From the IMG/VR virus record IMGVR_UViG_3300037692_000062, positions 1-51,289 of that record: a DNA stretch of 51,289 nucleotides; one strand, 5' to 3'. A program made the translations under genes and the position numbers. The notes under the pieces are model-generated. The model ran no database searches and was not told the origin of the DNA. It saw only the letters and a program-made list of their open reading frames with translations. Of the stretch, positions 4,101-36,160 are shown one piece after another; the stretch's first letter is position 1, and the number at the start of each line of letters is the position of its first letter. This DNA comes from a virus (Duplodnaviria; Caudoviricetes).

Positions 4101-6000
4101 GTTCTACGAAGACCTGAAGCACCAGTCAATTGAAGACTGGATCGCTCAATTTGGTCGCATTATCGATGCGTCTCCGGAGCAACTTCGTGCCGACCCGATT
4201 AAGTATCTAAAAGGCGTCGAGAATAAACTCACCATTCGTGAGGGTTCTGACAAAGCGGTTATCTCCGCAGCCTACCAGTCTAGGCGGGCATTGCTGCAAA
4301 TCCTTGGCGAGCCTACTGAGGATGCCCTCCTCGCTCGATGGGCAAAGCAGAAGATCATTGACGAGCTCTACAGAACTCGTGGATTGAAGTCTGTAAAGTC
4401 TATCGAACCGTTGTTGTGGGACAGCAATCTTGATCCTGCGGCGATGGCGAGGTACGTCACCTTCGAGGCTCACCTTGGGTTGTTTAATCCGACACAGGTC
4501 TTCCTCCAAGGCATGGCTGCTTCCTTCGCCATGGCAATCGATGGTAATCCGGTTCGGGCTGCTAGGGCTACCCATGCCTTCTGGAGCATGCGGATGCGTG
4601 GCATGGCTGTCGACGGCAGTAAGGCACAAGGCTGGTTCTCAAAGCAGGTCAGTAAAGCGCTGGCTATCGACAACGACGTCATGGACGAGATGTATACGTT
4701 GTGGAAAGAAAGTGGTGCAGCGTTTATCGAAGGTGAGTTCGCTAACCTCGATAACTACCTCAATCCGGGAATGTTTATGGACAACAGGACGGGCAAGCGT
4801 GCGTTGCGTGCTGGCGAGTTCTTCTTCCATGAAGGCAACGGCATCCACCGTGGGACTTCTTTTACACTGGCGTACCTCGCATGGAGAGACGCCAATCCGA
4901 CGGCTAAGCTTACGAATGCTGCCAAACGTCAGATCATCGACAGAATGGACAAACTGTATATCAATATGTCCCGAGCGAGTAATGCATCGTGGCAACGTGG
5001 CTGGCCAAGCATTCCTACCCAATTCTTCTCATTCCAAGCAAGGATGAGTGAACTCCTTTTGGCTGGTACGTTTGGCGGTAAGGCGATACTTACCCCAGCT
5101 GAGAAACTCAGGCTTATTGTCGTGAACTCAGCGTTGTTCGGGATACCAGTCGGTACTCTCGGGACTACGCTAGGCGTGGCTTTTCCGGCCTACGACAGCA
5201 TTAAGACAAAGCTTCTTGAGGAGGGTGTGAACTTTCAAGAGCCGATGTGGGACTTGTTCATGAATGGGTTCATGGGTGCGGCGACACAATGGGTCTTTGG
5301 AGACAGTTATGACGTCTCAAGCCGCATCGGTCCCGGTGGCCTGTCTTGGGCAGAAGACTTGTGGAACCTCGACTTCATGCGGGCACTAGGCGCGTCACCG
5401 AACTTCTTGAACGACGTCATGTCTCTCGGTAGCCCATTCCTCGCATCTGCGGCCAGTCTCTTCAACGAGAACCCCGATGCGAGATACGAACCGTCTGAGC
5501 AGGACTTCCTCGAAGCCATCCGGGAGGTGTCCTCTGCAAGTCATTTCCTTCGTGCGATGTACATCTTTAACACCGGGAAGTGGAAAGATCGAAGGGACGG
5601 TCTGGTCGGTGTTGTCAATGACCACGACATCAGGACGACAATTGCGGTAGCTCTTGGGTTGACGCCCAGCGATATCGCAGACACATACCTCAAGGCTGAC
5701 AGCAACAAGAAAACACAAGAGGCACAGAATGCAATACGCCGTGAAGTCATCAAGAATTACCGCTATGGTGTCGACGCGTATTCAGACCGGAAGTGGGACC
5801 AAGGTGATCGGTACTTTAGAAACGCCGTGGCCCTTATGATCGGTGGTGGCTTTGACGAGCAGAAGCGTGGGGAGGTCTTCCGTGAAGCGATTAAGTACAC
5901 CGCGCCGCTTAGTAGGCAGGTTGAGATGGAGTTTATTCGAAATGATCCTAAGAAGCGGTTCCAGACGTATTTGGACAAGGTCAGTGAAGGAGGAAACTAA
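1108..6000 (+). CDS. Large internal virion protein (1630 aa)
   Basis: Size, position and helical composition typical of podovirus ejection proteins. Confidence 0.7.
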   Translation: MANEVTLFQPPQPQISFTGEQPTQLNQDTVDTLTEKYDYALGDTSPGRDYLVQSFWLGHERRIRDMAAIQEAMAQRQERSKQVLGVTNLAASEGRSLTSEERRFVYDTMNAPVDADPNTVLERMFAARFIDEAAPAEKLAAMEEDPQATEMVDAHGKDFVAKQQAAMRVAEDIQARLQQNNWLNTGTDFLKGLVPFWTWANVHSKFEGVKSDGFLTGDNITQQARGAYLLPLDQFQRELQSTVDEIAKTNILDAVYYANAMVSYSSSDELWDNVFTGLDALDVATLGAGAAIGVAGKVLSGGSAVTKYANRVKAATRGMANPKASKSTQLVLQGDIPEAARERVKTAFANVGASVSDSTGSSTSQMRGNIEALASRHGMLNPKNYVDDPGTLSNEMAARLQDDLAANKDLIISTMVDLQVVPHIIEEAAILKGMENAESNFRRTFRYLEDAIVDITPVRESDEVFGGVDHISILLGKTDADSFKSPEQAQFWANDAYSLVPGSYNIVNRDGHYYIQMRKNVDETALSVTDLRLGTGNATQETWLNVFIGFLRNPDTLLSDPTVANRKVATYGGNAVAKRLEEVLKPITKLSKNQVEKLKTVMDHARFEFRNVQTPDGKIERVRGKFYDNVGEFERSYFKIHGDMPSYDESLAYFSFRDVMDWDFLQRNLSVRRDKDRLGIEQKAFTFTILDKKAQTSTVSSSLFFEGRTLENLPHTGTTPFTVGWVRPEDGSLRFNLSTKMRKNEWDELDEAIASGNYEVIQVADPKSRPLNELLQSGGEPVEYLVVRDIKTKPLSSDQVAYNEGGHWNYPQNGWYSKQPSVHNTKFGRKVYDGDTVLHYYPAGAQGRKFNQAYEAGRQLIKDVAARKVSIAAADRWISTHLPYDNLNAFMKIFRSKENPNAAFDINSPFILTPSGVSAADALDLKSVFGRDVVNVSRSDHNLTGYINSKYTQQRGERVTSILEAGTESNPLFALTGAPLLDSMETLRLSATQIAKDRFYEDLKHQSIEDWIAQFGRIIDASPEQLRADPIKYLKGVENKLTIREGSDKAVISAAYQSRRALLQILGEPTEDALLARWAKQKIIDELYRTRGLKSVKSIEPLLWDSNLDPAAMARYVTFEAHLGLFNPTQVFLQGMAASFAMAIDGNPVRAARATHAFWSMRMRGMAVDGSKAQGWFSKQVSKALAIDNDVMDEMYTLWKESGAAFIEGEFANLDNYLNPGMFMDNRTGKRALRAGEFFFHEGNGIHRGTSFTLAYLAWRDANPTAKLTNAAKRQIIDRMDKLYINMSRASNASWQRGWPSIPTQFFSFQARMSELLLAGTFGGKAILTPAEKLRLIVVNSALFGIPVGTLGTTLGVAFPAYDSIKTKLLEEGVNFQEPMWDLFMNGFMGAATQWVFGDSYDVSSRIGPGGLSWAEDLWNLDFMRALGASPNFLNDVMSLGSPFLASAASLFNENPDARYEPSEQDFLEAIREVSSASHFLRAMYIFNTGKWKDRRDGLVGVVNDHDIRTTIAVALGLTPSDIADTYLKADSNKKTQEAQNAIRREVIKNYRYGVDAYSDRKWDQGDRYFRNAVALMIGGGFDEQKRGEVFREAIKYTAPLSRQVEMEFIRNDPKKRFQTYLDKVSEGGN

Positions 6001-15171: not shown

Positions 15172-15659
15172 CACCGGACCCTCAACTCTTCGATATTTAC
15201 AGGAGTGTAGTCGATTAGTTCGACACACACACTCCGGTAAGGCCCTTCTGGAGAGCCTTGGTCATGCGTATGCCCGTGGATGTTGACACAATCCGTGAAA
15301 ATGCTCTCTCGACGAAGCGGGACGTGGCTTAGATGAAGGCCAAATTCCTTAAAGTGCCGCCAGAGATAAATCTTCTTAAAGTGCTTCAGCAGGATTTGAT
15401 CGGCACCATTGTCGTGATTGCCGAGGATCAGCCTCTTCTGCCCATTCAATGAGGAAAGGACATTGTCGATGTAACCGTTACTTGCCTTCATGTAGACATC
15501 ACCGAGATGGTAGACTTTGTCGCCCGGCTTTACAACGGAGTTCCACTTACTCACCATATCCCAGTCCATCTCTGTAGTAGAGGTATACGGGCGATCACAG
15601 TACTTGATGATGTTTCCGTGGTTAAAGTGGGTATCCGAAATCACCCAGATGTCAGTCAT
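15171..15659 (-). CDS. Metallophosphoesterase
   Basis: SDTHFNH, HLGD, GNHD, SHVP, HGHTH motifs. Confidence 0.88.
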   Translation of the reverse strand: MTDIWVISDTHFNHGNIIKYCDRPYTSTTEMDWDMVSKWNSVVKPGDKVYHLGDVYMKASNGYIDNVLSSLNGQKRLILGNHDNGADQILLKHFKKIYLWRHFKEFGLHLSHVPLRRESIFTDCVNIHGHTHDQGSPEGPYRSVCVELIDYTPVNIEELRVR

Positions 15660-16512
15660 CTTTTACCTCATAGACGTTAGGTTCACGCGTGACTTCTGTC
15701 AGGTAGACAGGACCGGTACTGTACAGAAAAGTCCTCAGACCCGGCCAGCACGAGTGTTTGAACTGGCAGTAGCTACAATTGATACCGAGCTTCCGATTAC
15801 CAGACTTACCGAAGTCCTCGTCTTGGTAGCCACGAGATGGCATCTTCGTCCGAACCAGCATCTCAGTCTTGGCTTGCACGATAGCTGGATAGTCAAAACC
15901 AGCCTTCGTGTGGAAGTCTAGAGTGAGCTTGCCATGTGTCTTGTCCCCAACGAGAAAAGCTGCGAAATCCTTCCTCCTTACCAGCGGGTCATCCTTAGAC
16001 CCTTCGAGATAGAAATTAATCTGAGGAATGTAGCCGAATGCATCGACGTCTGGTGTCAGGTGGCTGGCGAACTTGTCGAATGAGTACGGTGCGGCAGACT
16101 TGGCATCTACGAGCACGCCATCGATTACACCGTCTCTGTGACCAGTTACACCAGCCACCGTGATCTCGTCTTGCTGCCCGGTGACTGAATGCCCGGACAG
16201 CTCGGCGAGAAATAGCAGCACAGCTTCCCACAGATCGCCGATCAGAAACTTCAGGTACGTTGGCCCATCCAACGGCTCACCAGCTTCTGGTCGGTTGACC
16301 GAGAACCAAAGCTTACGGTCGCATTTCTCCCCGATATTACTCGGACGGAGATATGTCCCTACTTTTCTCCCGTCTGGAGATAGCTTTTCTGCCACCACCT
16401 TGGCCACAGAGGCCCCGAAGGCAGTCGCCTGCGCTTCGGTAACCTCTGAACCACTCTTCATGACAGCATAGATGTCTTCGACTAGTGTCGAGATATCTTT
16501 GTCAGAAGGCAT
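15652..16512 (-). CDS. PD-(D/E)xK Cas4-like exonuclease
   Basis: RPSNIGEKCDRKLW, GHRDG...VDAKS, QINFY, C-terminal CSYCQFKHSC. Confidence 0.82.
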   Translation of the reverse strand: MPSDKDISTLVEDIYAVMKSGSEVTEAQATAFGASVAKVVAEKLSPDGRKVGTYLRPSNIGEKCDRKLWFSVNRPEAGEPLDGPTYLKFLIGDLWEAVLLFLAELSGHSVTGQQDEITVAGVTGHRDGVIDGVLVDAKSAAPYSFDKFASHLTPDVDAFGYIPQINFYLEGSKDDPLVRRKDFAAFLVGDKTHGKLTLDFHTKAGFDYPAIVQAKTEMLVRTKMPSRGYQDEDFGKSGNRKLGINCSYCQFKHSCWPGLRTFLYSTGPVYLTEVTREPNVYEVKDD

Positions 16513-16954
16513 ATTCTCCCTCACCTTCCATTGGTTCGTACTCGATAAGACTCGTCACGGCGACGGCGAGGAGTTCGTGGCCCTTGCCCTTGTCAGTATC
16601 GTAGACCCGGATTTTACAAATGCCAGTTGATCCGTTACCGATCTTACGATCACCCAAGTCGACGAAGATAGGCTCACCAGCGTCATCGACACCGTCCTGA
16701 ATCTTCAGAGCAGGGGGGCCGAGGTCCTTCTTGGAGCCGTTGTAAATCTTGTCCTGAGCACGACGAAGCTTAATAAACTCACCTTCACCATCCTTTGCAG
16801 GGCGAATTTTCAGGCCCAAGCCCGAGAGCTTGAATTTCTGCATCGACTCATCGTCGAGAAAGAGATCGAGGGTGTAGTTACCGTACTTCGGGTCCGGCTT
16901 ATCAACCTTGGCCCAGTAGATTACACCTGAAAGGTATAGTACAGAATTTGCCAT
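16502..16954 (-). CDS. Single-stranded DNA-binding protein (T7 gp2.5-like)
   Basis: YWAKV..PD, IGNGS motif, acidic tail ending in Phe. Confidence 0.78.
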   Translation of the reverse strand: MANSVLYLSGVIYWAKVDKPDPKYGNYTLDLFLDDESMQKFKLSGLGLKIRPAKDGEGEFIKLRRAQDKIYNGSKKDLGPPALKIQDGVDDAGEPIFVDLGDRKIGNGSTGICKIRVYDTDKGKGHELLAVAVTSLIEYEPMEGEGEYAF

Positions 16955-31455: not shown

Positions 31456-31746
31456 CTATCCGACACTGATCCACCCGTATTCTTTGACGAGTTTAGACAT
31501 AGCAGAATACAGGTCATGATCTGTGAGAGTGTCGAGAAGTTTGTCAACTCTGTCCATAGGGACGTTGCACGATCCATGTGTCACGCCACCGCCGTAGTCA
31601 TAACCGCCAAGCATGAGCACAGTACACAAAGGACCAGCCTCTTGATACAACACGATGAACTGGTACCCGGACGTGTCGCTCCAGTCGCCCACAATAACGG
31701 CAGGCCCGATCTCGCGGGCTATTTTCCCTGTTTTGAACGTGATCAT
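31456..31746 (-). CDS. Hypothetical protein
   Basis: AAGGGG RBS, just downstream of the tRNA. Confidence 0.55.
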   Translation of the reverse strand: MITFKTGKIAREIGPAVIVGDWSDTSGYQFIVLYQEAGPLCTVLMLGGYDYGGGVTHGSCNVPMDRVDKLLDTLTDHDLYSAMSKLVKEYGWISVG

Positions 31747-31777
31747 AGCGGACCCCTTTGTTCACATAACGCATTTA

Positions 31778-31853
31778 TGGCGAGGGAGGTAGGATTCGAA
31801 CCTACGACAAGCGGTTTTGGAGACCGCTGCTCTGCCCTCTGAGCTACACCCCC
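31778..31853 (-). tRNA. trnW: tRNA-Trp (CCA)
   Basis: GGGGGTG-TA-GCTC..GAGC-A-GCGGT CT CCA AA ACCGC..GTAGG TTCGAAT CCTAC-CTCCCTC-G-CCA; 76 nt with encoded CCA end. Confidence 0.93.
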
Positions 31854-32035
31854 AAGCTAAACCAACGCCCATCCTCAACAAGGCCAACCCCAAGAAGGGC
31901 AGTCACGACACTACAATCATCGAAGCGACGATCTTCGTAGAGGTAGATTTTGCCCTTCCATGCAAAGGCGCGGGTAGAAACCACGGCATAGTGGTTCTTC
32001 CTATCATAAGGCGACGCACGCTGATAAATCTTCAT
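31844..32035 (-). CDS. Hypothetical protein overlapping the tRNA 5' end
   Basis: ATGA overlap with the upstream gene, GAGG RBS. Confidence 0.5.
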   Translation of the reverse strand: MKIYQRASPYDRKNHYAVVSTRAFAWKGKIYLYEDRRFDDCSVVTALLGVGLVEDGRWFSLGV

Positions 32036-32358
32036 TGCCAACCTCTCGCTTTCCTTCGTTGGATATGATGCGACAAATGCCGGAAGGACCTAGCGACGGC
32101 ATAGTCTTGCCCACCGATCCAATACAACGGGAGTCCATTCCGTCTAGCCCATTCGCAGTACAAGTCTGCGCCTAACATGTCCAAGTCGACGGACAGAGCG
32201 CTGTTCTTGGCGAGGTACTGCAAGTCTTCAGCGTACTTCCGAAAGTAAAACGTGTCGTGCTGACTAGTCGTTTCAGTATTCGCAAGTAATTCGATATCCT
32301 CGGTTGAATACTGAGCCGGAGGCGCAGGCTTGGTGAAATTCCCTGACACGCGACCCAT
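32032..32358 (-). CDS. Hypothetical protein
   Basis: AGGAGG RBS. Confidence 0.6.
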   Translation of the reverse strand: MGRVSGNFTKPAPPAQYSTEDIELLANTETTSQHDTFYFRKYAEDLQYLAKNSALSVDLDMLGADLYCEWARRNGLPLYWIGGQDYAVARSFRHLSHHIQRRKARGWQ

Positions 32359-32366
32359 GCTGCCTC

Positions 32367-32597
32367 CTAAAAAGGGATGTCGGCGAGGTACTCTTTCAGT
32401 CGGTCCTCGCTCGTGCTGATGTTGATCAGGACTTCATCTGGATGAGGCGATGGTTCGGTACTGGTGACCATGCCGTATTGAGCAGCGAGTACTTCCATCG
32501 CTTGCGCTTCAAGGGCAGGGATGAACAATGATATTCCACCCTTGCTCGTGATCGTCTCGATGTGTGTCTCGATGGCATTCTCACGTCTGATCTTCAT
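32367..32597 (-). CDS. Hypothetical protein ending DIPF
   Basis: AGGAG RBS. Confidence 0.6.
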   Translation of the reverse strand: MKIRRENAIETHIETITSKGGISLFIPALEAQAMEVLAAQYGMVTSTEPSPHPDEVLINISTSEDRLKEYLADIPF

Positions 32598-32619
32598 GTC
32601 ACCACCACTCCTATACTAG

Positions 32620-34240
32620 GAACACTTTGGAGCCAGCGCAGTTCTACCAGCTACGCCAGTAGGCTTACGTCTTACAGCGCAGGAGCAGCACCACCTGACT
32701 ACACAAGCGTTGACTGCGCTGGCAAGGATTGGAGGCCCCACCTCAGAGCGTAGGTGAGGCAGTAGTATCTTGGTGACTGACCGGACTAGACAAGCAGCTT
32801 TCTTCAAACGAGCCAGTCCTGTTTTCGCAGCAGACCATGGCTATAGTTTGGCTTTAGGTCTAGTGCTTACATGCTGGACAAACGATGGAGTGCTTACTCA
32901 CCTCGCATTTGCACACACTACAGTAAACTGCGAGGACACTCGCCCTTCTACCAGCGAGTATCCAGTGTGTACCTGTTGATTGACGCCTATGGCGTTCGAA
33001 CTTGCGTTCGTCGTGTCAGTCCCCTCAGGGACCTCCGCTGATGCACCCAGAGTTTAGCACGCCCTGGGTGCACAGGTAGAAGTCTCATTTTACTATATCA
33101 CACTAAATCGGCATTTGGCCTCATGACAAGGGCAATACGAGTATCACGCATTGGCACTCAGCCGGTGCGCCGTGCACCTTCCGGGTTCCCCCGAAATCTT
33201 AAATTGATCTTCTATGGGTGCCCTTGTGCCCCAGGTAGGGTGAGGTAGGGTTAGGCGGCGTTGGCCTTGATGGCCGGAGCAGTGGTCTTGGTCTTCGCAG
33301 GTTCATCGTTCGCGAGATTGAACTGCGAAAGCATTGCTTCCGCCTTGTCGGCGAAGTCGACGATGAGATCACGCACCTTGTCGGAGACATGGACGTCCCT
33401 GGTGTCGGTCGTGGTCAACTGGGTCTTCAGCGCTTTCACACGCTTCAGCAGGTCAGTGTCGCCGATGGTAGCGACTTCTGCGAAGTTGTTCCGGTCGAGG
33501 ACATACATATCCTTCTTCCCATCAGGGTTGATGAACCGGGTTTCGCACAAGCCGACCATGATCTTGGCCTGGTCGGTATTGGGGTTCTTGACGACGTGGA
33601 ATTCGGACTTGCTGAAGGACAGGATTGCTCCCGCTTCAGCCGCCGAGTTTAGGACGTCGGAAGGCATCGCCTTGTTGATATCCTTGCCGCCCAGTCCGTT
33701 GATGATCTGACAGCGGCGAACGTAAAGCCGGACTGCCTGCTGATCGTTCGTCCTGAGGCCAGCGAAGAAAGCGTTGAGCGGGCGGACGTCCCCATGTGTG
33801 GAGACGTGCCACAAGCACGAGATGACAGCGATATGAGCCTTGCGGCCCGCCTCACCGTATGCCTTCAGCGTCGCAGAGATGTACTGGTTGAGCTTGGAGG
33901 CGTCTTTGATGATATCCATAGTAGAGTACCTTTCTTTGCAGGAAGGCACAAGGACACTCAAAGAAGATCGTTTCTGATTAAAAGTTATGGCATTTTAAGC
34001 CGGCACCTGCACCTCGCACTTCAGGGTTTCCCCTTCCGCCGCTACATCGTGAGGCACACCAAGCTCCGTAGAGTGAGGCAAGCCAAGCAATGGTCATTGC
34101 TAGCAAGACGCGCGCGACCGCATTACGGTATTGCAGTGCCACTCTGGCCGGCTGTTCCTATCATCACAAGGTGCGAAGAAGGCAAGAGCCGAGGGCAGGA
34201 GCGAACCCGCATAACGGGTCTTGGTATCGCTCAAGTGCCA
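32620..34240 (-). ncRNA. Candidate large structured RNA containing an ORF
   Basis: About 950 nt without credible genes, packed with helices and GNRA loops; three nested long-range helices enclose CDS 33251-33919. Confidence 0.6.
33251..33919 (-). CDS. Early protein of unknown function (HGD motif), enclosed by an RNA stalk
   Basis: AGAAAGG RBS before MDIIKD; SCLWHVSTHGDVRPLN resembles early proteins of other podoviruses. Confidence 0.8.
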   Translation of the reverse strand: MDIIKDASKLNQYISATLKAYGEAGRKAHIAVISCLWHVSTHGDVRPLNAFFAGLRTNDQQAVRLYVRRCQIINGLGGKDINKAMPSDVLNSAAEAGAILSFSKSEFHVVKNPNTDQAKIMVGLCETRFINPDGKKDMYVLDRNNFAEVATIGDTDLLKRVKALKTQLTTTDTRDVHVSDKVRDLIVDFADKAEAMLSQFNLANDEPAKTKTTAPAIKANAA

Positions 34241-34243
34241 AGG

Positions 34244-34272
34244 ATAGTCTCATACTCCCCTGGCATTGTCAA
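34244..34272 (-). promoter_or_regulatory. Sigma70-type early promoter
   Basis: TTGACA-17bp-GACTAT with extended -10 TG; predicted start near 34238 coincides with the 5' strand of the outermost RNA helix. Confidence 0.6.
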
Positions 34273-34313
34273 TCCTGTTAAGTCACTGGTTTTGTTGAGG
34301 TTCTTAATTTTGT

Positions 34314-34754
34314 TTATCGGTCCGACCAAGTCTTGTACCGGCGGACATTGGGACGAACCTTGTTCCGAGAGTGGGGAGCATTGGCAGCGCCGAGGAGCTC
34401 CGTCTTGTGTTCGGCATTGGCGGCGTTTGGCGCTACAACTAGAGTACGTTCAGGTATAACTTCGAGGTCGTTGTACCTGGCGACAAGAGCTAGCATCGTC
34501 TCGCGTTGCTTTACGATTTGGATGCAACGGATTATCGCTTGGTCTTTCTTGCCTCGCTTGAGGGCATTGGCCAGCCGAACTAGATCACAGTTGATCTTGT
34601 CTTTTAATGACTTGATCTGATGGTCAATGGACTGGCGTGAGGCGTCTCGTGCTGTTGGGTTGAAGTGGCGTTCTGATATGCCACCGTAGCCTACTGAACC
34701 GACGCCAGATGCCTGGCCTAACTCTGGCCTGCCTTTATCGACTAGCGCGCTCAT
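34314..34754 (-). CDS. Early hypothetical protein
   Basis: GAGGTG RBS, ATGA overlap. Confidence 0.6.
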   Translation of the reverse strand: MSALVDKGRPELGQASGVGSVGYGGISERHFNPTARDASRQSIDHQIKSLKDKINCDLVRLANALKRGKKDQAIIRCIQIVKQRETMLALVARYNDLEVIPERTLVVAPNAANAEHKTELLGAANAPHSRNKVRPNVRRYKTWSDR

Positions 34755-34876
34755 AAGCACACCTCAAACATCGATTGTAGTGCGGCCTGGTAGACGTAGA
34801 GAAAGCCCGCACCGTAGGCAAAGCCAACGATAGCGAAGGCTAGCCGAATGATGGCTTCGTTAGACATGTTTGTCAT
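34751..34876 (-). CDS. 41-aa membrane peptide, probable first early gene (not in ORF track)
   Basis: MTNMSNEAIIRLAFAIVGFAYGAGFLYVYQAALQSMFEVCL; AAGGG RBS. Confidence 0.55.
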   Translation of the reverse strand: MTNMSNEAIIRLAFAIVGFAYGAGFLYVYQAALQSMFEVCL

Positions 34877-35181
34877 GGTGTTACCCTTTGGGTTGCACCA
34901 ATGAGCTTAACAGGATTGACAATGTCAAAGAACCGACCGGGCAAGGCCCCGTCAACGTGTAGACTAGACTAGGAATGTGGCAGAAATAAGGCGACATGTT
35001 TAAATCAAATGATATCGAAAGAGGGGGGATGTGGCATGAGAGTTGTAGACGCAAGTATCGTGCCAAACCGGCGGATAGCCTGAGGTTTAGACGAATGGTA
35101 ATCAAATGGTGTGCAAGCCACACTCTGGCATAAATCTTGCATACCAAGGGCAACACGGCTCACACCAGGCCGCGCCATCGT

Positions 35182-35240
35182 GTTCGTTTTGTGTTCCCGA
35201 TGTGTTCGTCTTGTGTACACGATTCGTTTCCGATTCGTTC
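35182..35240. promoter_or_regulatory. Tandem GTTC-N7-GTTC array (alphaproteobacterial LexA-box-like)
   Basis: Half-sites at exact 11-bp period: GTTC 35182, 35193, 35204; GTAC 35215; GTTT 35226; GTTC 35237. Confidence 0.6.
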
Positions 35241-35418
35241 TCCTCTGGGGTTGACCTGGGGGCACCAAGGGGGGCCAGGGGTACCCGCTGCGCGGGGAAT
35301 CGCACCATCCGAATTACTAGCAGAAATTCCCAGACCCCAGTTTTAGAGGAAAAAACCACTCGAAAACCCCGATATCACAAATATTTTCCTCTTTTATCAT
35401 TTTTCTCCTTCCAAGGTG

Positions 35419-35447
35419 TTGACTTTTCCCTAAAAAAGGTGTAGTGT
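35419..35447 (+). promoter_or_regulatory. Sigma70-type promoter for the late arm
   Basis: TTGACT-17bp-TAGTGT upstream of the terminase genes. Confidence 0.55.
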
Positions 35448-35698
35448 ATAGGAGTATACATCAGGAACACGATGTGTATCACAAGGGAACACCCCTCAGC
35501 ACCCTTCATCACTCTCCTATTTAGAGGATAGTGTATATCATAGGGTCATCCCGAGGAACAGCCTTCCTTGTGAATGTTCGTGTAACTAATAGTATACCTC
35601 TGAACCACTGGCTGAACCCCAGCAGAGAAGGAAGGCTGTCGCCGACGGATGACACTCAAGACGTCAGGAGACGACATGAAGATTAGGGACCTACCGTA

Positions 35699-36160
35699 AT
35701 GAACTTCAAGAATGTCAATGGCGTCTGGTTGACTCAAGGCCTCTTCTATGAGACTACGACTGATAAGTCGACAGCGGTCTACTCCATCGAAGACCTTCGG
35801 GAGAAGTACCTCACCATTGCCGATCCTACCGAATACCGATTTGCTACCGAGTGCCTTGGTGGGTGGGACCACTGGATTGCATTGTCAGAGGCATCGTTTT
35901 TTCAGAAATACATCGAGAAGTGGCGTAATGAACTCGAAGTCAAGCTTCGCTCAGCTGCCGTTGCAGGAATCATACTCCAAGCGAACCAAGGGGGCAGGGA
36001 CTCGTTCCAAGCGAACAAGTACCTCGCGGATCGTGGCTACGACAACCCCCGGCAGACGAAAGGTCGTCCGAAGAAAGAAGACATAGCCCGTGCAGCCACA
36101 GAGATGGTCGCTGACAGGCGAAGAGAGGCTGATGACTACCTCCGTGTCATCCCGAACTAA
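35699..36160 (+). CDS. terS: Terminase small subunit (putative)
   Basis: Position before TerL; DPTEYRFA...GGWDHW, WRNELEVKLRS, KGRPKK. Confidence 0.7.
   Translation: MNFKNVNGVWLTQGLFYETTTDKSTAVYSIEDLREKYLTIADPTEYRFATECLGGWDHWIALSEASFFQKYIEKWRNELEVKLRSAAVAGIILQANQGGRDSFQANKYLADRGYDNPRQTKGRPKKEDIARAATEMVADRRREADDYLRVIPN

What the first reader, a model, noticed from the sequence alone, without database searches (positions are those of the whole stretch)
32620..33150. About 530 nt of gene-free, densely base-paired sequence downstream of the enclosed ORF
In an otherwise tightly packed genome this stretch has no credible ORF but many helices (given as + strand text). GCCAGCGCAGT/ACTGCGCTGGC (32632-32642 / 32713-32723) is a perfect 11-bp stem. 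ACTAGAC/GTCTAGT (32785-32791 / 32858-32864) encloses nested CAAAC/GTTTG and AGCCA/TGGCT. CCTCGCA/TGCGAGG lies at 32901-32907 / 32929-32935, and there is a 10-bp stem at 32934-32943 / 32954-32963. TACCTGT/ACAGGTA (32970-32976 / 33072-33078) closes a multi-branch domain with a GCAA tetraloop hairpin (32997-33010) and TGCACCCAG/CTGGGTGCA. A 7-bp GACUGAC/GUCAGUC match (33021-33015 with 32781-32775) could form a pseudoknot. It may be a separate large phage ncRNA, in the size range of ROOL/GOLLD-class RNAs, or the 3' domain of the RNA above. I cannot assign it to a known family.
Basis: partly seen in the sequence, partly recalled or inferred. Interest (0 to 1): 0.7.

Follow-up and report, generated by a model that had tools for sequence, protein, structure and literature searches.

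The report
Orphan structured non-coding spacer in phage
A 600-base stretch of a sediment phage genome really has no gene, and its middle 300 bases fold better than chance, but it matches no known RNA family and has no relatives, so it stays an unproven RNA candidate.

Summary
The window is a complete 51,289-nt phage record. The stretch 32598-33250 lies between two minus-strand genes. It is the longest part of the genome with no coding signal: 604 nt, 32630-33233. At the exact finding coordinates the fold beats 60 of 60 dinucleotide shuffles on both strands (z -3.41 minus, -2.61 plus). Locally, only about 300 nt (32850-33150) exceeds the genome's own background. The rest, including the perfect 11-bp stem, does not.

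Rfam gives nothing. No homologue turned up in phage records, viral contigs, genome contigs or five related phage genomes. No listed run holding the stretch is on record as RNA. In 2 of 2 testable relatives of the neighbouring 222-aa gene, the next gene follows at once, so the stretch is not part of that gene's module. It also does not pair significantly with the upstream gap.

Best reading (0.4): a structured spacer or leader in the minus-strand early transcript. A new large ncRNA class is not excluded (about 0.1-0.2). Interest is modest.

The parts
32598..33205 (-). Non-coding spacer (called N3 in this report). It lies between the 3' arm of the repeat that encloses ORF222 and the start codon of ORF76, and it contains the finding.
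   Evidence: No coding signal. No protein-family remnant. Fold z -2.69 on minus (1 of 60 shuffles as good) and -3.27 on plus (0 of 60).
32860..33100 (-). Structured core. This is the only part whose local fold stability exceeds the genome background.
   Evidence: z -3.68 (minus) and -4.17 (plus), 0 of 200 shuffles. The 150-nt windows score -2.6 to -3.8, against 4 of 88 control windows below -2.6.
33026..33088 (-). Long hairpin of 21 pairs with an 11-bp apical stem (33042-33052 / 33062-33072). Three G-U pairs on the minus strand would be A-C mismatches on the plus strand.
   Evidence: Folds. Apical stem mean pair probability 0.98. G-U count read by hand from the fold.
32983..33010 (-). Two tandem 5-bp hairpins, one capped by GCAA (a GNRA loop on the minus strand only) and one by AUA.
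   Evidence: pair probabilities 0.96 and 0.97.
32911..32972 (-). Y-shaped element: a 9-bp outer stem, an 11-bp hairpin (32934-32944 / 32953-32963, with one G-U that is C-A on the plus strand) and a 4-bp hairpin.
   Evidence: pair probabilities 0.96 and 0.92.
33179..33196 (-). 7-bp hairpin capped by a GGAA tetraloop, just downstream of the repeat arm.
   Evidence: pair probability 0.92.
32632..32723 (-). Domain closed by the perfect 11-bp stem. It is real as sequence, but its 150-nt window is not more stable than shuffles.
   Evidence: I2; window 32600-32749 scores z -0.50 (minus) and -1.09 (plus).
32735..32760 (-). 9-bp hairpin.
   Evidence: pair probability 0.93.
33206..33230 (.). 3' arm of the 25-nt inverted repeat that encloses ORF222 (partner arm 33945-33969). 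It borders the spacer but is not part of it.
   Evidence: 88% complementary. The same design occurs in L002 and L004.
33251..33919 (-). ORF222, the 'enclosed ORF' upstream of the spacer.
   Evidence: Strong coding score of +0.43 per codon. 169 representative relatives.
32367..32597 (-). ORF76, the next gene downstream. It is an orphan.
   Evidence: Coding score +0.28. The only database hit is itself.
31778..31853 (-). tRNA-Trp on the same strand, 745 nt downstream of the spacer.

Best explanation
The stretch is a truly non-coding spacer of about 600 nt in the leftward (minus-strand) early gene block of a 51-kb phage. I read it as part of the minus-strand early transcript. It would be the long, partly structured RNA between the ORF222 unit and the next cistrons (ORF76, two more small ORFs, tRNA-Trp).

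Its central ~300 nt form a cluster of stable hairpins. These would act in cis as a folded barrier or leader that shields the downstream RNA from nucleases. They would also set it apart from the upstream unit, whose flanks form a 25-bp long-range helix of the size RNase III cuts.

Shown: it is non-coding; the core folds better than shuffles and better than most of the genome; it belongs to no Rfam family; it is not part of the ORF222 module.

Inferred only: that it is transcribed, from which strand, that the neighbouring helix is processed, and any effect on the downstream genes.
For: - Non-coding by four tests.
- All credible neighbouring genes from 9.4 to 34.9 kb are on the minus strand. No promoter-like site lies inside the spacer: 2 sites in 31500-35000, neither in it, and 2.0 expected by chance. 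The one terminator-like site inside it is a weak 5-bp stem, and 3 sites were found against 3.2 expected. Read-through is therefore the simplest assumption.
- Fold stability: z -3.41 on minus at the exact coordinates, 0 of 60 shuffles. The core scores z -3.68, 0 of 200. Minus-strand 326-nt windows rank 3 and 7 of 312.
- Hints for the minus strand. Four G-U pairs in the two longest hairpins become A-C on the plus strand (read). The minus-strand fold has 3 GNRA tetraloops against 0 on plus, and 0 of 90 shuffles and 0 of 47 genome windows reach 3.
- The adjacent 25-nt repeat enclosing ORF222 recurs with compensatory changes in L002 (26 nt) and L004 (25 nt). 0 of 200 simulated sequences match either. 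This fits long-range RNA helices in this transcript.
- In TerL-related phages, some low-coding stretches in the corresponding leftward region fold better on the same strand: L014 3280-3884 z -3.78 against -1.71, and L008 4343-4687 z -2.94 against -0.90.
Against: - There is no expression data at all.
- There is no homologue, hence no covariation.
- Half of the spacer (32600-32850 and 33150-33250) folds no better than shuffles.
- z values near -4 also occur inside ordinary genes: 33600-33749 in ORF222 at -4.01, and 16300 at -4.34.
- The core's z is slightly better on the plus strand (-4.17 against -3.68), and its plus-strand ensemble is better defined (minimum-energy frequency 0.066 against 0.0017).
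- One of the three GNRA loops has a 1-bp closing stem with pair probability 0.41. With two loops the count is matched by 2 of 90 shuffles and 2 of 47 genome windows.
- The helix that would pair the spacer's 5' edge with the ribosome-binding site of ORF76 (-23.4 kcal/mol) is not exceptional. Other windows of the same transcript do as well or better.
- 600 nt is long for a purely cis-acting element.
- The low-coding calls in the related phages rest on small training sets of 6-9 ORFs. L018 shows no such signal.
Confidence: 0.4

Rival explanations
1. A stand-alone, trans-acting large ncRNA of a new class. It would either be released from the early transcript or have its own start and end. It would fill the niche of ROOL and GOLLD, which are phage-encoded, hundreds of nucleotides long and found near tRNA genes.
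For: - It is the longest non-coding stretch in a tightly packed genome.
- It has a significantly stable core with GNRA-capped hairpins.
- tRNA-Trp lies 745 nt downstream on the same strand.
- ROOL and GOLLD are described as phage or prophage RNAs often near tRNA islands (passages of PMC12286853).
Against: - No Rfam match at E <= 10.
- No homologue in any collection searched, so there is no family and no covariation.
- Only about half of it is structured beyond chance.
- No promoter-like site, and only one weak terminator-like site, was called inside it.
- No palindromic loops of the kind used for kissing contacts were seen among the 16 loops.
Confidence: 0.2
2. DNA with no function of its own, such as the worn-out remains of genes or dispensable filler in a fast-changing early region. 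The helices would be chance.
For: - The whole early block is lineage-specific. Of 22 window proteins tested against 18 related loci, only ORF222, the TerS-like ORF and TerL found relatives.
- The flanking ORF146 and ORF76 are orphans.
- Half of the spacer is not structured.
- Similar z values occur in coding sequence.
- All the non-coding stretches cluster at 32.6-35.6 kb, as expected of a decaying or mosaic region.
Against: - No residual coding signal or protein similarity.
- GC content equals the genome's.
- 0 of 200 shuffles fold as well as the core.
- The one large gap of the genome also ranks 3 of 312 for fold stability.
- The GNRA count is strand-specific.
Confidence: 0.2
3. A plus-strand (antisense) small RNA. 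It would end at the long hairpin 33026-33088, which on the plus strand is followed by A-UUUU.
For: - The core's plus-strand fold has the better z (-4.17) and a well-defined ensemble, with centroid equal to the minimum-energy fold.
- On the plus strand the hairpin is followed by a run of four U after one base (read).
- A TATACT hexamer lies at 32612-32617 on the plus strand.
Against: - No acceptable -35 element lies upstream of that hexamer (read).
- TATACT is not clearly enriched: 15 found against 8.7 +/- 2.7 expected, and 2 of 100 shuffles reach 15.
- The scan called no plus-strand promoter or terminator in the spacer.
- The G-U pairs and GNRA loops favour the minus strand.
- At the exact coordinates z is weaker on plus, -2.61.
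Confidence: 0.08
4. A DNA-level element, such as a replication origin or a recombination site.
For: It is a long non-coding stretch with hairpin potential on both strands. Cumulative GC skew has a local minimum near 33 kb.
Against: - The global skew minimum is at about 20-21 kb, not here.
- No iterons or other repeat families occur in the stretch.
- There is no AT-rich segment; GC is 0.52-0.54 throughout.
Confidence: 0.07
5. Part of a self-splicing intron (group I or II) that carries ORF222 in a loop.
For: An ORF is enclosed by a 25-bp helix and flanked by non-coding sequence on both sides.
Against: - No intron model matches at E <= 10.
- ORF222 has no reverse-transcriptase or homing-endonuclease domain and no PDB fold match at E <= 0.001.
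- In L002 and L004 the ORF plus repeat stand without long flanks.
- The two flanks do not pair significantly.
- Nothing shows that ORF146 and ORF76 are halves of one gene; each found only itself.
Confidence: 0.03

Closest known systems
ROOL and GOLLD large ornate RNAs of phages and prophages
   Same: It is phage-encoded and hundreds of nucleotides long. It is a non-coding stretch with many hairpins and has a tRNA gene nearby on the same strand (context per passages of PMC12286853).
   Different: Neither Rfam model matches. There are no relatives and no covariation. Only about 300 of 600 nt fold beyond chance. Multimer contacts and pseudoknots are untested.
Leader and spacer segments of ribosomal RNA operons and RNase III-processed phage T7 early RNA. 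This comparison is from established knowledge and was not tested here.
   Same: It is a non-coding structured segment inside a polycistronic transcript. It sits next to a helix of about 25 bp formed by the flanks of the upstream unit. A tRNA lies downstream.
   Different: Processing is not shown. The T7 sites are local hairpins, not long-range helices. No boxA-like signal was established here. The enclosed units are protein genes.
Group I and group II introns with loop-encoded ORFs
   Same: An ORF is looped out of a long helix, with non-coding sequence on both sides.
   Different: No intron model matches. The ORF lacks maturase, reverse-transcriptase and endonuclease domains. There is no evidence of a split host gene. 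The flanks do not co-fold.
Small mobile elements of phages with short inverted ends and one ORF, such as the mycobacteriophage MPME elements. This is recalled and was not checked in a paper here. It is relevant to the neighbouring ORF222 unit, not to the spacer itself.
   Same: It is a single ORF tightly bracketed by 22-26-nt inverted repeats, and it occurs in different gene neighbourhoods.
   Different: No target-site duplication is visible at the ends (read). ORF222 resembles no known transposase. The spacer under study lies outside the repeat.

Membership tests
ROOL RNA (Rfam) | Match to the family covariance model at or above its gathering score | tested here: not met
   The whole window at gathering threshold gives only the tRNA. 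E-value searches of 32300-34500 and 32598-33250 up to E 10 list no ROOL match.
ROOL RNA (Rfam) | Phage or prophage location, often near tRNA genes | tested here: met
   It lies in a complete phage record. tRNA-Trp is 745 nt away on the same strand. The context criterion is taken from passages of PMC12286853. There is one tRNA here, not an island.
ROOL RNA (Rfam) | Conserved multi-pseudoknot secondary structure supported by covariation | not testable with these tools
   No homologue was found, so no alignment exists.
GOLLD RNA (Rfam) | Match to the family covariance model, with its conserved 3' region | tested here: not met
   No match. The stretch is also shorter (about 600 nt) than 'many members exceeding 800 nucleotides'.
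Group I intron | Conserved catalytic core detectable by the Rfam model | tested here: not met
   No match up to E 10 over 32300-34500.
Group I intron | Interrupts a gene whose two exons form one reading frame | tested here: inconclusive
   ORF146/148 and ORF76 each find only themselves among proteins of 0.55-1.75 times their length. Neither a fused nor an unsplit form could be found or excluded.
Group II intron | Domain V/VI and domain I-IV models, with a reverse-transcriptase/maturase ORF in domain IV | tested here: not met
   No Rfam match. ORF222 has no Pfam domain and no PDB fold match at E <= 0.001.
Self-cleaving ribozymes, riboswitches, tmRNA, RNase P and other curated RNA families | Match to any of the 4227 Rfam 15 models | tested here: not met
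   Searches give only chance-level hits to eukaryotic miRNA, snoRNA and viral hairpin models (E 1.9-9.4, 12.6-16.6 bits against gathering scores of 36-100). ARAGORN finds no tmRNA.

The most novel reading that the evidence does not exclude
The early leftward transcript of this phage may be built like a ribosomal RNA operon. Long-range 22-26-bp helices would bracket its protein-coding units for RNase III excision. The ~600-nt piece left between the ORF222 unit and ORF76 would accumulate as a stable, GNRA-rich, trans-acting RNA. That RNA would belong to a new class, unrelated to ROOL, GOLLD or any Rfam family.
Probability: 0.1. Interest if true: 0.7.

Novelty: new member of a known kind. Interest (0 to 1): 0.3.

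Why it matters
If the core is a working RNA, it would add an orphan example to the short list of large structured RNAs carried by phages, whose functions are still unknown. Together with the neighbouring helix-bracketed genes, it would also point to an RNA-processing layout of early phage transcripts that has been little described.

As it stands, it is a single sequence with moderate thermodynamic support. There is no conservation and no expression evidence. Its present value is as a flagged candidate, to revisit when related phages or metatranscriptomes become available.

Tried and rejected
HOMOLOGUE SEARCHES THAT FOUND NOTHING
- blastn, distant mode, of 32598-34313 against 50,697 phage records.
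- blastn of the same stretch against five TerL-related phage records. The best hit is E 0.0385 over 24 nt.
- Sensitive blastn against L002-L005. Only the ORF aligns.
- A single-sequence covariance model of the core (R1) over 19 sources totalling 200,004 bases. It found only itself. Over the five related records it found nothing.
- Two stem-with-free-loop patterns, one in viral contigs and one in genome contigs.
- Earlier scan notes by place and by sequence.

NEIGHBOURHOODS
- ORF222 relatives were not found in viral contigs or genome contigs. Only four short metagenome contigs turned up.
- The 56-sequence alignment was too diverse for locus search.

SEQUENCING RUNS
- No RNA holder is listed.
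- X1 is probably the source sample. X2 holds a few identical 151-nt pieces of the same phage. There were no joints and no variants.

IDEAS REJECTED
- One RNA spanning both gaps.
- A ribosome-binding-site-sequestering helix 33230-33247 / 32600-32620 as a specific device. It is -23.4 kcal/mol but not exceptional.
- A CsrA-type sponge: GGA occurs 7 times against 9.7 expected, and ANGGA 0 times.
- A replication origin by GC skew.
- Repeats or iterons.
- Self-similarity to the rest of the genome. Only the repeat arm matches.
- Recoded stop codons.
- TATACT as a promoter motif.

OTHER
- The ORF222 fold search gave no functional lead.
- A literature search for flanking-repeat RNase III processing in phages returned nothing relevant in the listing.
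- The first genome-wide fold scan timed out. It was repeated with smaller windows.
Full report
SETTING

The window is a whole virus record of 51,289 nt, rated 100% complete. It has a terminase large subunit, major head protein and family-A DNA polymerase and one tRNA-Trp at 31778-31853 on the minus strand. The credible genes between about 9.4 and 34.9 kb run on the minus strand. The packaging and structural genes run on the plus strand from 35.7 kb.

The finding lies in the gap between ORF222 (33251-33919, minus) and ORF76 (32367-32597, minus). A second gap (33920-34313) lies upstream of ORF222.

IS IT GENE-FREE? YES.

- No ORF of 70 aa or more touches 32598-33250.
- On a codon-usage log-odds trained on 37 long genes of this genome, ORF222 scores +0.43 per codon and ORF76 +0.28. 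All seven ORFs of 31-69 aa inside the gap score negative, from -0.02 to -0.50. No frame is positive in sliding windows across 32600-33140.
- Genome-wide, 32630-33233 (604 nt) is the longest stretch in which no frame reaches the threshold. The only four other stretches of 120 nt or more all lie between 34051 and 35600.
- None of 22 stop-to-stop peptides from the two gaps matches Pfam or PHROGs.
- Reading TGA or TAG as sense opens no frame across the gap on the gene strand.

ARE THE HELICES THERE, AND ARE THEY MORE THAN CHANCE?

The suggested pseudoknot is a nested long-range helix in the minimum-energy fold.

Fold stability against dinucleotide shuffles:
- The 653-nt gap: z -4.05 (minus) and -4.60 (plus), with 20 shuffles each.
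- The exact finding coordinates: z -3.41 and -2.61, 0 of 60 shuffles as good on either strand.
- A 241-nt core, 32860-33100: z -3.68 and -4.17, 0 of 200.

The signal is local, however. In 150-nt windows only those starting at 32850-33000 are low on the minus strand (-2.65, -3.80, -2.62, -3.26). The six windows starting at 32550-32800 lie between -0.50 and +1.06, and the window starting at 32600 holds the perfect 11-bp stem. The windows starting at 33050 and 33100 score -0.57 and -0.81.

Among 88 sense-strand coding control windows the mean is -0.45. Four fall below -2.6, two below -3.2 and one below -3.8. A window inside ORF222 itself reaches -4.01.

Against the genome's own 326-nt windows, corrected for GC, the minus-strand ranks are:
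- 32761-33086: 3 of 312.
- 32924-33249: 7 of 312.
- 32598-32923: 45 of 312.
A window inside an ordinary gene ranks first.

I conclude that about 300 nt are unusually well folded and the remainder is not.

WHICH STRAND?

Energy alone does not decide.

For the minus strand:
- It is the gene strand.
- The 21-pair hairpin 33026-33088 and the 11-bp hairpin 32934-32963 contain four G-U pairs that would be A-C mismatches on the plus strand.
- The minus-strand fold has three GNRA tetraloops (GGAA, GCAA, GUAA), while the plus-strand fold has none. None of 90 shuffles and none of 47 genome windows reaches three.
- One of the three loops is marginal, though, with a 1-bp closing stem and pair probability 0.41. 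Two GNRA loops are matched by 2 of 90 shuffles and 2 of 47 windows.

For the plus strand:
- The core's ensemble is better defined.
- The long hairpin is followed by A-UUUU.

IS IT A KNOWN RNA? NO.

- Rfam 15 at gathering thresholds finds only the tRNA.
- E-value searches of 32300-34500 and of the gap alone list only chance-level hits to eukaryotic and viral hairpin models (E 1.9-9.4).
- ROOL and GOLLD profiles are in Rfam, and these RNAs are described as phage or prophage RNAs often near tRNA islands, with GOLLD often above 800 nt (passages of PMC12286853).
- The context here is loosely similar: one tRNA lies 745 nt away. The models do not match.

DOES IT HAVE RELATIVES? NONE FOUND.

- Phage records: no match.
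- TerL relatives in IMG/VR are only 49-64% identical in TerL. Five of their records show nothing by blastn or by a covariance model of the core.
- Two stem patterns with free loops found nothing in viral or genome contigs.
- The flanking ORF146/148 and ORF76 are orphans.
- The two sequencing runs that hold the stretch are DNA. One is the likely source, and the other holds a few identical pieces of the same phage.
- Covariation therefore cannot be tested.

RELATION TO THE ENCLOSED ORF AND TO 'THE RNA ABOVE'

ORF222 is bracketed by a 25-nt inverted repeat, 33206-33230 / 33945-33969, 88% complementary. ORF222 has 169 representative relatives. Genomic context was available for only four of them, on short metagenome contigs.

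In the two contigs that keep both flanks, the ORF is again enclosed:
- L002: a 26-nt repeat at 159-184 / 890-915.
- L004: a 25-nt repeat at 23-47 / 768-792.
The repeats have different sequence, and the outer 8 pairs of L002 are fully compensatory relative to the window. 0 of 200 simulated sequences reach either. The other two contigs lack the 5' flank and cannot be tested.

In both L002 and L004 the next gene starts 88 and 43 nt after the 3' arm. The long spacer is therefore not part of this module.

The upstream gap is not structured: z -1.05 and -0.34. Folding the two gaps together gains -15.1 kcal/mol, against -9.8 +/- 3.1 (minimum -18.7) when the finding region is shuffled. That is not significant. 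The '3' domain of the RNA above' reading is not supported.

The intron reading also fails:
- No intron model matches.
- ORF222 has no maturase or endonuclease features. A confident model (pLDDT 92) matches no PDB fold at E <= 0.001. It matches only uncharacterised phage proteins weakly.

OTHER ALTERNATIVES

- Origin of replication: the global cumulative GC-skew minimum is near 20-21 kb, with only a local dip at 33 kb. There are no iterons and no AT-rich segment.
- Protein sponge: no enrichment of GGA motifs.
- A helix between the pyrimidine tract after the ORF222 stop codon and the ribosome-binding site of ORF76 exists at -23.4 kcal/mol. Other parts of the same transcript equal or beat it.

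A WEAK COMPARATIVE HINT

In loci of TerL-related phages, low-coding stretches occur in the corresponding leftward region (small training sets). Four of the five I folded are more stable on the strand opposite TerL than on the TerL strand:
- L014 3280-3884: -3.78 against -1.71.
- L014 479-1140: -2.45 against -1.45.
- L008 4343-4687: -2.94 against -0.90.
- L008 5017-5343: -2.52 against +0.34.
L018 shows nothing (+1.99 against -1.50).

Some of these stretches are divergent promoter regions, and one partly overlaps an ORF. The hint is suggestive only.

VERDICT

The stretch is gene-free, the helices are real, and the fold is more stable than chance, but only over about 300 nt.

It belongs to no known family and has no detectable relatives. 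It is independent of the ORF222 module and of the upstream gap.

My odds:
- 0.4: a partly structured spacer or leader within the minus-strand early transcript, acting in cis.
- 0.2: a stand-alone new ncRNA.
- 0.2: functionless filler.
- The rest: a plus-strand RNA, a DNA element or an intron.

Without homologues or expression data the claim of a ROOL/GOLLD-class RNA cannot be judged. Interest is modest.

Noticed in passing
window 33206-33230 / 33945-33969; L002 159-184 / 890-915; L004 23-47 / 768-792: ORF222 is tightly enclosed by a 25-26-nt inverted repeat in 3 of 3 loci that keep both flanks. The repeat sequences differ and show compensatory changes. The arms lie 20-25 nt from the stop and start codons in the window. 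This could be an RNase III-size long-range RNA helix or the ends of a small mobile unit. G-U/A-C asymmetry does not decide between them.
   Followed up: partly
window 34261-34282 / 34906-34927: This is the best long-range inverted repeat of the whole genome: 22 nt with 21 matches. Simulated genomes reach its score in 1 of 30. It encloses a two-gene unit. One gene is a 41-aa hydrophobic ORF (34751-34876, minus) and the other is ORF146 (34314-34754, minus), joined by an ATGA stop/start overlap. The arms contain TTGACA, and a third copy of GCATTGTCA lies at 35879.
   Followed up: partly
window 32598-35698: All five stretches of 120 nt or more without coding signal lie in this 3.1-kb early block. 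Only the two repeat-enclosed units show coding potential there. The listed ORF 35546-35872 (minus, score +0.075) overlaps the conserved TerS-like ORF 35699-36160 (plus) and is probably not a gene.
   Followed up: partly
window 35450-35650: A second spot of strong local fold stability, with z -3.7 to -4.1 on both strands. It lies in the region between the leftward and rightward gene blocks and holds two TATACT hexamers on the minus strand.
   Followed up: no
window 15972-16460, minus strand, inside the 290-aa gene 15652-16524: This is the most stable fold of the genome relative to GC: rank 1 of 312 at z -3.96. A 150-nt window at 16300 scores z -4.34. It lies within coding sequence.
   Followed up: no
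window 33251-33919 (ORF222): A phage protein family of unknown function with 169 representatives at E <= 0.001. The AlphaFold model is confident (pLDDT 92.4) and mostly helical with a small beta hairpin. No PDB fold matches at E <= 0.001. BFVD gives only weak hits to uncharacterised proteins of podoviruses that infect Pseudomonas, Ralstonia, Caulobacter, Rhizobium and other hosts.
   Followed up: partly
L014 3280-3884 and 479-1140; L008 4343-4687 and 5017-5343: Phages with 49-62% identical TerL carry low-coding stretches upstream of the packaging genes. These fold better on the strand opposite TerL (z -2.45 to -3.78) than on the TerL strand (+0.34 to -1.71). This hints at structured leftward early RNAs as a group trait.
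   Followed up: partly
L014 4441-4463 / 4877-4899: A 23-nt, 87% complementary inverted repeat with arms 413 nt apart in a TerL-related phage. It may be another repeat-enclosed unit. Its content was not examined.
   Followed up: no
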